From Eledone cirrhosa (taxonomy: Eukaryota): a stretch of 64,000 nt of DNA. How positions within the stretch are numbered: position 1 is the stretch's first letter; the number at the start of each line of letters is the position of its first letter. The DNA lies in the NCBI GenBank assembly GCA_964016885.1, contig OZ024740.1, positions 267,716,001-267,780,000 on the forward strand, read 5' to 3'. The translations under genes were made by a program, and so were the position numbers. The notes below the pieces were generated by a model, which was given only the letters and a program-made list of their open reading frames with translations, was not told the DNA's origin and did no database searches. Positions 3,350 to 4,189 of the stretch are shown one piece after another.

Positions 3350-3599
3350 GCCATAATAAATGAATATATATATATATATATATATATATATATATATATA
3401 TATATATATATATATATATATATTCATTGAAGTTGGTGGCTCACCACTGGATAGAACTTTTTATTCTGTTGTGTAGTATGCATAATGCAATAGTATGAAA
3501 AGCACTCAACGTAACACAACTCAGTCATCTTTGGTGTAAAATTCTGTTGGTGCGTGGATGGCGGAAGGTTGAAATTCCTTTAAAGGTTTTATCCTGCTG

Positions 3600-3651
3600 G
3601 CACTATATATATTTCAATAACCAGTATGATTCCAGTGATATCATCAGGTGT
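3600..3651 (-). ncRNA. Type I hammerhead ribozyme motif (left arm)
   Basis: Minus strand: acac-CTGATGA-tatcactggaatcatactggttatt-GAAA-tatata-TA-gtgc; stem II imperfect. Confidence 0.7.
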
Positions 3652-3795
3652 ATTGCATAACAGTTATAAAGGAAACTGAACATTCGGGAGAAGTAAGTAT
3701 AAAGGACGTAGGCTGCCCCTGAATCAAGTAATTTTATCTTTATTTTTGTCTCACAACTTGTGTTCACCATGTTTCCTTTATAATTGTTATGCAAT

Positions 3796-3847
3796 GCACC
3801 TGACGATGTCACTGGAATATTACTGGTCATTGAAATATATATAGTGC
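3796..3847 (+). ncRNA. Type I hammerhead ribozyme motif (right arm)
   Basis: gcac-CTGACGA-tgtcactggaatattactggtcatt-GAAA-tatata-TA-gtgc; stem I gcac/gtgc; stem II imperfect. Confidence 0.7.
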
Positions 3848-4189
3848 CTGCAGAATAAAACATTTAAAGGAATTTCAACTTTCCGGCCCTCTGTCGCTTT
3901 ATTCAATATATAACAAATTTAATGTAGCAATGGATTCTACAGGACTAGAACTGTTTTATTCGAAGGAAATCACCAGGAAAGCCCTGCAGAAGCCATTTCT
4001 GCATTATGTTGTCTGTATACACTCAGCTAATGTATCGAGTACCTTACTTACTGTGGTTACCCCCCGATTGAACCCGGGACTCACGCATATATATATATAT
4101 ATATATATTTATATATATATATATATATATATATATATATATATATATATATATATATATATATATATATATATATATATATATATATG

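What the first reader, a model, noticed from the sequence alone, without database searches (positions are those of the whole stretch)
3424..4087. Inverted repeat carrying hammerheads of both polarities
Seen: arms of about 120 bp place a minus-strand HHR (3600-3651) opposite a plus-strand HHR (3796-3847) inside a non-coding block bounded by TA tracts. On either transcript the active ribozyme would be base-paired to the antisense of the other. Known: this geometry resembles the hammerhead arm of viroid-like RNAs with ribozymes in both polarities, but Penelope elements also generate inverted pLTRs. Inference: either a self-cleaving element working on both strands with a built-in fold switch, or an old inversion. 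The arms have diverged about 10-15% yet both keep the CUGANGA and GAAA cores; stem II is imperfect in both.
Basis: partly seen in the sequence, partly recalled or inferred. Interest (0 to 1): 0.75.

Follow-up and report, generated by a model that had tools for sequence, protein, structure and literature searches.

The report
Head-to-head Penelope-type hammerhead insertion
The two mirror-image ribozyme motifs are real, but they are two end-pieces of one small repeat that were likely pasted back to back by a Penelope-type jumping gene, a layout already described, and an RNA read through both is predicted to lock them in a hairpin rather than switch them on.

Summary
They are two differently 5'-truncated copies of one non-coding Penelope-type repeat end, joined head to head in a (TA)n tract. 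The left copy runs to the family's long 3' end, the right one to its short end. Of 82 motif-selected family loci, 40 are single, 28 are head-to-head, and 3 span two hammerheads, each with its own junction. Inverted pairs couple one long with one short end (22:1; sister family 33:3), as does a protein-coding Penelope-like element in this genome. Cores decay at about the background rate (4.9% vs 6.0%). On either strand the ribozyme fold lies 68-78 kcal/mol above the hairpin, so no switch is predicted. No copy starts at the cut site (0 of 93 arms). Bases 3913-4086 are a second, independent head-to-head stub with a broken hammerhead. Opposite-strand hammerhead pairs and inverted pLTRs with a one-sided tail are in print (PMC4209133, PMC8557442), and this scan has noted the layout on other DNA in at least 13 genomes. 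Verdict: ordinary; a new member of a known kind.

The parts
3364..3423 (.). (TA)30 tract, left flank and likely target
3422..3682 (-). Left arm: family-A copy, 5'-truncated at family position ~88, running to the LONG 3' end (386). A 33-nt deletion between 3561 and 3562 removed its short-end region and shortens the visible repeat to 115 nt; 18 of 258 sites differ from the family majority
3600..3651 (-). Type I hammerhead motif: cores intact, stem I 3 bp + A-C, U-U/C-C in stem II, palindromic (UA)n stem III; predicted cut between 3604 and 3603
3682..3685 (.). Head-to-head junction, unique to this locus among the two-hammerhead loci examined
3686..3908 (+). Right arm: family-A copy from the common 5' stop point (position 1, base of a 5' hairpin) to the SHORT 3' end (235); 14 of 223 sites differ from the family majority
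3796..3847 (+). Type I hammerhead motif: cores intact, stem I 4 bp; predicted cut between 3843 and 3844
3909..3912 (.). Remnant of the right TA flank, between the two insertions
   Evidence: sequence
3913..3982 (-). Family Y short-end arm with a broken hammerhead at 3932-3982 (both core boxes and stem I changed against the family majority)
   Evidence: coordinates read by eye
3983..4086 (+). Family Y long-end arm, head to head with the previous part: a second, independent insertion of the same build
4087..4188 (.). (TA)51 tract, right flank

Best explanation
The block holds two end-pieces of one non-coding, hammerhead-bearing repeat joined head to head in a (TA)n tract, likely laid down in a single insertion by a Penelope-like (PLE) reverse transcriptase/GIY-YIG enzyme acting in trans, and likely inert since. 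Shown: the family, its two fixed 3' ends about 150 nt apart, variable 5' truncation, TA flanks, the long+short pairing, and decay of the cores. Inferred: the enzyme nicked both strands of the self-complementary TA tract; one DNA end primed cDNA at the long start site and the other at the short start site of uncut source RNA; both cDNAs stopped early and were joined at their 5'-truncated ends. Predicted: any read-through RNA forms a hairpin that buries the ribozyme on either strand. The hammerhead likely works only in the source element, where same-strand tandem copies can pair their palindromic stem III as a dimer.
For: Architecture in motif-selected samples: family A, 82 loci (40 single, 28 head-to-head, 12 other multi, 1 tail-to-tail, 1 no hit); ends long+short 22, same 1, unscorable 5 (P=6e-6). 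Sister family B, 89 loci (47 single, 39 head-to-head, 3 other); long+short 33, same 3, unscorable 3 (P=2e-7). Single copies use both ends (A 23 short/12 long; B 22/23). A protein-coding element of this genome (RT + GIY-YIG look-alikes at 0.95-0.97; a fragment lies at window 6305-7277) has two 3' ends 64 nt apart before (TA)n in 33 of 36 rows. Read by eye, 16 of its 35 distinct loci are head-to-head: 11 long+short, 1 long+long, 4 unscorable. Neither arm contains the other in 16 of 29 A and 15 of 21 B long+short pairs, this locus included. Arms of one locus share more derived letters than arms of different loci (A 71 vs 24.8 expected, B 57 vs 14.7; Wilcoxon on divergence P=0.001 and 0.017). Core substitution 47/966 vs 470/7867 at non-diagnostic sites, P=0.19. 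The ribozyme fold costs 68-78 kcal/mol, pair probability 0.0, also for the nascent prefix. Family B has a 1926-bp non-coding partial tandem with two same-strand hammerheads (L353). Literature.
Against: No autonomous partner was identified: families A and B show no significant DNA match to the coding PLE tested and no PLE protein match in their internal sequence. The full unit of family A was not recovered. Target-site duplications cannot be read in (TA)n. Shared derived letters could also come from gene conversion between arms. One inverted junction does recur: 4 B loci (L064, L086, L088, L150) share it, so inverted loci can be re-copied, though that one carries a single hammerhead. Within family A alone, stem pairs show no significant covariation (P=1.0 and 0.19). 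Cleavage was not tested, and no 5' ends sit at the cut site.
Confidence: 0.9

Rival explanations
1. A viroid-like or retrozyme-like RNA unit carrying ribozymes in both polarities, toggled by a fold switch and propagated as a two-arm unit.
For: Both cores are intact here. Both-hammerhead loci recur: 3 of 82 A loci and 19 of 89 B loci.
Against: Junctions and spacings differ from locus to locus (B spacing -2 to 1364 nt). The arms are copies of one sequence, not two different ribozymes. There is one hammerhead per strand, so no unit-length product and no cis dimer for the 2-bp stem III. The antisense arm is made first on both strands and the ribozyme fold costs 68-78 kcal/mol. Cores decay neutrally.
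Confidence: 0.02
2. A local DNA inversion-duplication, or fold-back self-priming of one cDNA (the model discussed in PMC3846280), made the second arm from the first.
For: Arms at one locus are more alike than arms between loci. In 8 of 29 A pairs and 1 of 21 B pairs the long arm contains the short arm, and in 5 + 5 they start at about the same place.
Against: Here the right arm holds family positions 1-87, absent from the left arm, and the left arm holds the tail to 386, absent from the right arm. The same holds for 31 of 50 long+short pairs. Both arms end exactly at family 3' ends.
Confidence: 0.05
3. Two unrelated insertion events of the same family happened to land back to back.
For: TA tracts collect many such stubs: family Y sits 4 bp away and further hammerhead motifs lie nearby.
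Against: There is no TA between the arms. Head-to-head pairs are 28 of 82 loci against 1 tail-to-tail, in a family of a few hundred copies at most in 3 Gb. The end types are coupled and the arms share derived letters.
Confidence: 0.03

Closest known systems
Insertion units of endonuclease-positive Penelope-like elements with an adjacent inverted 5'-truncated copy and a one-sided tail (Craig et al. 2021, PMC8557442, passages read; Pen2a_Av, PMC3846280, passages read)
   Same: Head-to-head inverted copy, tail on one arm only, heavy 5' truncation, (TA)n targets, hammerhead near the 3' end, partial tandem in sister family B.
   Different: No ORF found in this lineage. The tail is about 150 nt, not 30-40 nt. 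The driving enzyme is not identified.
Minimal type I hammerheads of metazoan PLEs (Cervera and De la Pena 2014, PMC4209133, parts 1-2 of 4 read)
   Same: Short stem I, long helix II, palindromic helix III predicted to need a dimer. That paper already reports dual motifs about 100-700 bp apart on opposite strands in Schistosoma.
   Different: Helix II here closes with U-U and holds a C-C mismatch rather than a bulged base plus G10.1-C11.1. A U-U base is reported for axolotl HHR_Amex2 (PMC7229834, passages read).
PAc (Poseidon, Anolis) reverse transcription in vitro (Frangieh et al. 2024, PMC11167929, parts 1-2 of 4 read)
   Same: Both target strands cut and extended, AT-rich target, two internal start sites that define the tail, predicted dimer, uncut RNA as template: this matches the long+short pairing and the lack of cut-site ends.
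   Different: That study concerns a coding element and, in the parts read, did not count end pairing in inverted genomic copies.
Metazoan non-LTR retrozymes (PMC7229834, passages; bioRxiv 10.64898/2026.07.22.740005, part 1 of 5 read)
   Same: Non-coding, type I hammerhead, proposed non-autonomous PLE derivatives.
   Different: Retrozymes are 150-450-bp same-strand tandems. This locus is inverted, and the only tandem unit seen in the lineage is 1926 bp.
Hammerhead viroids and viroid-like RNAs (PMC8781251, passages read)
   Same: Superficially, a hammerhead on each strand within one hairpin.
   Different: No fixed unit, no sign of a circle or of multimers; the two motifs are copies of one sequence.

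Membership tests
Type I minimal hammerhead of PLEs | CUGANGA, GAAA and UH cores in type I order | tested here: met
   both motifs; AUA triplet in 166 of 173 parsed family motifs
Type I minimal hammerhead of PLEs | Helix I of 4-5 bp | tested here: met
   plus motif 4 bp (minus motif only 3); pairs 1-4 formed in 83-94% of 173 motifs, with T-A (129) versus C-G (30) between subfamilies
Type I minimal hammerhead of PLEs | Palindromic helix III / loop 3 | tested here: met
   self-complementary hexamer in 123 of 173 motifs (two different palindromes in A and B); 24 carry a non-palindromic variant
Type I minimal hammerhead of PLEs | Bulged base after position 9 and G10.1-C11.1 closing pair | tested here: not met
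   symmetric helix II with U-U at the base, (these columns were partly fixed by the parsing pattern); so a variant, like axolotl HHR_Amex2
Type I minimal hammerhead of PLEs | Self-cleavage as a dimer | not testable with these tools
   indirect test negative: 0 of 93 A arms and 0 of 97 B arms start at the cut site
PLE insertion unit | Two 3' ends (tail optional), tail on one arm of an inverted pair | tested here: met
PLE insertion unit | Adjacent inverted 5'-truncated copy, head to head, variable junction | tested here: met
PLE insertion unit | Microsatellite / AT-rich target | tested here: met
PLE insertion unit | Partial tandem forming pLTRs | tested here: inconclusive
   seen in sister family B (L353); not recovered for family A
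Autonomous PLE | ORF with RT and GIY-YIG endonuclease | tested here: not met
   longest stop-free frame in the B unit is 86 aa, no PLE protein match; none in A upstream sequence. Filed as a non-autonomous PLE-type repeat, not as an autonomous PLE
Non-LTR retrozyme | Same-strand tandem units of 150-450 bp | tested here: not met
Non-LTR retrozyme | Circular RNA expression | not testable with these tools
   needs RNA data
Viroid-like RNA with ribozymes in both polarities | A fixed unit carrying both ribozymes, copied as a unit | tested here: not met
   junctions differ in the two-hammerhead loci
Viroid-like RNA with ribozymes in both polarities | Ribozyme fold reachable on each strand | tested here: not met
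   prediction only: 68-78 kcal/mol penalty
Viroid-like RNA with ribozymes in both polarities | Circular RNA and rolling-circle multimers | not testable with these tools
   needs RNA data

The most novel reading that the evidence does not exclude
The strict long+short pairing (55 against 4 in two non-coding families, 11 against 1 in a coding one), with non-nested arms that share source-specific letters, is the genomic footprint of a Penelope dimer whose two subunits are committed to the two different start sites of one source RNA and prime from opposite strands of a (TA)n break. It mobilises in trans a kilobase-scale non-coding hammerhead RNA that is used uncut.
Probability: 0.55. Interest if true: 0.4.

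Novelty: new member of a known kind. Interest (0 to 1): 0.17.

Why it matters
As a two-polarity ribozyme switch it would have been a genomic bridge to viroids; the data do not bear that out. What remains is modest. The family gives counted support for how Penelope elements make their mirror-image ends (coupled priming at two start sites), which Craig et al. 2021 list as an open mechanistic point and the PAc in vitro system can test. It also warns that opposite-strand hammerhead pairs in animal genomes are expected by-products of PLE insertion.

Tried and rejected
Rfam scans found no hammerhead; curated models miss this variant. Search for fossil ribozyme cuts (5' ends at the cut site), prompted by earlier notes: 0 of 93 A arms (nearest starts 168 and 174 against 171; a few arms may be counted twice), 0 of 97 B arms (149 and 154 against 152), 0 of 17 Y arms, 0 of 11 arms of the coding element. 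Covariation inside family A looked likely from column counts but failed in the joint table. A-to-G hyper-editing of the arms: none visible (A>G 2 of 18 and 1 of 14 changes). Autonomous partner: not found; the RT ORF next to L353 is a separate insertion beyond a TA tract. Pfam gave no relevant family for the PLE proteins; their identity rests and on motifs recalled from my own knowledge. The first motif search sampled mainly decayed copies of sister family B and is biased towards intact cores, so it was not used for core decay. No RNA holder listed. Literature searches listed no paper counting long/short pairing or describing this family; no supplements were read, and those of PMC8557442 may list related families.

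Full report
Observation. The inverted repeat is real: arms 3562-3676 and 3771-3885, 115 nt, 90% complementary, folding z-scores -21 and -19. Both hammerhead motifs sit at the stated coordinates with intact cores; the minus one has a 3-bp stem I. Short-read contigs cover 3426-3869 with no differing letters in the long pieces, junction included. Rfam reports no hammerhead.

What the block is. The window lies in a 3-Gb genome. Bases 3422-3908 belong to a dispersed repeat, family A, whose common form is about 385 bp: a 5' hairpin, a pyrimidine tract, the hammerhead, a short 3' end near position 237 and a long 3' end at 386, usually followed by (TA)n. Exact A-specific 18-mers occur 48 and 56 times, with 0 hits for reversed controls, which suggests a few hundred copies at most. 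The left arm is positions ~88-386 on the minus strand; the right arm is 1-235 on the plus strand. The arms point outwards, and the 94-nt spacer is the 5' part of the right copy. A 33-nt deletion in the left arm cut the overlap from about 149 to 115 nt. Bases 3913-4086 are a different, very abundant family (Y; 4318 candidates), itself a head-to-head stub with a long and a short end and a hammerhead broken in both core boxes.

Does the two-arm layout recur as a unit? No. Among 82 loci picked by motifs outside the ribozyme core, 40 are single, 28 head-to-head, 12 other multi-piece, 1 tail-to-tail and 1 gave no alignment; 3 span two hammerheads. Motif picking slightly favours two-arm loci. In sister family B (same hammerhead design; 3001 exact 22-mer hits; the first 100 places were fetched, 89 loci) 47 are single, 39 head-to-head, 3 other; 19 span two hammerheads, with spacings from -2 to 1364 nt (gap limit 2000 for B, 60 for A). 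The 20 two-hammerhead junctions printed from an earlier, similarity-biased sample all differ. One result runs the other way: four B loci share one inverted junction, so an inverted locus can be re-copied; that one carries a single hammerhead.

The rule behind the layout. Head-to-head pairs join one long and one short end: A 22 against 1 (5 unscorable), B 33 against 3 (3 unscorable), while single copies use both ends. A coding element of this genome, with RT and GIY-YIG look-alikes and a fragment at window 6305-7277, shows the same: two ends 64 nt apart before (TA)n, and 11 long+short, 1 long+long and 4 unscorable among 16 head-to-head loci of 35 (read by eye). Its hammerhead also has U-U at the base of helix II and a palindromic stem III. 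In 31 of 50 long+short pairs neither arm contains the other, this locus included, which excludes simple fold-back or local duplication for them. Arms of one locus share about 3-4 times more derived letters than arms of different loci, as expected from one source template; gene conversion is not excluded. Family B's full unit is a 1926-bp non-coding partial tandem. Older A-type copies extend at least 1.2 kb upstream, with a weak match to B's interior (E=5e-4) and no PLE protein match. The driver was not found.

Are the two ribozymes maintained? The arms are 7.0% and 6.3% from the family majority. Core sites in 81 A arms change at 4.9%, non-diagnostic neighbours at 6.0% (P=0.19). 44 of 81 arms keep the whole core, so about 0.3 of two-arm loci would keep both by chance; 1 of 7 A loci did, and 6 of 13 B loci in a sample biased towards intact cores. 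The design is conserved between subfamilies (stem I pair T-A versus C-G, two different palindromes in stem III), which points to selection in the source elements; within A, covariation is not significant.

Could they work here? On each strand the antisense arm comes first. Forcing the hammerhead fold costs 78 (plus) and 75 (minus) kcal/mol in the full RNA, and 68 and 75 in the nascent prefix; pair probabilities round to 0. Even in isolation the minus motif does not form stem I, while the plus motif does. Stem III has two pairs and a palindromic loop, the type reported to need a same-strand dimer; this locus offers one motif per strand. No copies start at the cut site, in line with PAc using uncut RNA.

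Mechanism. Shown: anatomy, end coupling, non-nested arms, neutral core decay. Inferred: a PLE enzyme acting in trans nicked both strands of a (TA)n tract, primed at the two start sites, and the two truncated cDNAs were joined. Predicted: the locus is inert as a ribozyme; if transcribed it would give double-stranded RNA.

Comparison with what is known. Cervera and De la Pena 2014 report dual minimal hammerheads 100-700 bp apart on opposite strands (parts 1-2 of 4 read). Craig et al. 2021 describe the adjacent inverted 5'-truncated copy, the tail often at one end only, and microsatellite targeting (passages). The Adineta vaga Penelope paper (PMC3846280) calls head-to-head the most frequent arrangement and discusses self-priming (passages). 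Frangieh et al. 2024 show both-strand priming and two start sites (parts 1-2 of 4). A U-U helix II base is reported in an axolotl hammerhead with weak monomer and better dimer cleavage (passages). Viroid features are from PMC8781251 (passages); the 2026 retrozyme preprint was read in part 1 of 5. Numbering of hammerhead positions and PLE protein motifs is from my own knowledge. Earlier scan notes hold the same layout in at least 13 genomes and two-armed elements with two fixed ends in this genome; they are unchecked and served only as leads.

Verdict. Observation confirmed; switch reading not supported; a known insertion structure in a family for which my searches listed no description. Interest 0.17.

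Noticed in passing
window 3297-3352 (-): A further hammerhead motif with intact cores, U-U at the base of helix II and a 4-bp stem I, just left of the TA tract; a different repeat from family A.
   Followed up: no
window 6305-7277 (-): 3' fragment of a very abundant coding Penelope-like element (GIY-YIG part, hammerhead at ~6440, long end in TA); 66,816 protein candidates in the genome; a near-full frame lies in L286.
   Followed up: partly
window 1269-1323 (-), ~8110 (+), ~13400 and ~13866 (-): More hammerhead motifs of other families; the last two lie in a 466-bp direct repeat (13063-13958), a retrozyme-like dimer.
   Followed up: no
window 3913-4086; L236-L255: Family Y: its majority hammerhead has a 4-bp stem III and could work as a monomer; contig depth over it is about 500,000 against about 8 nearby, suggesting tens of thousands of copies, though depth is not a copy number.
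   Followed up: partly
L353:2450-4800: Family B unit: 1926-bp non-coding partial tandem with two same-strand hammerheads, a candidate unusually long retrozyme.
   Followed up: partly
L064, L086, L088, L150: Four family-B loci share one inverted-tail junction; three also share left flank, suggesting re-transposition of an inverted locus together with its flank.
   Followed up: partly
window 3682-3686 and about 20 family-A loci: Many A copies stop at the same 5' point, at the base of a 5' hairpin, although older copies extend further upstream: a transcription start or a reverse-transcription stop.
   Followed up: no
window 2399-3181 (-): Decayed Tc1/mariner-like transposase (weak helix-turn-helix hits below cut-off).
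   Followed up: no
window 15180-19030 (+): Frames resembling gag, protease, RT, RNase H and integrase of an LTR retrotransposon, in pieces (recognised from recalled motifs).
   Followed up: no
window 26342-64000: 33-bp tandem array, over 1140 copies, 94% matches, strongly strand-skewed, with stop-free frames of about 1000 codons.
   Followed up: no
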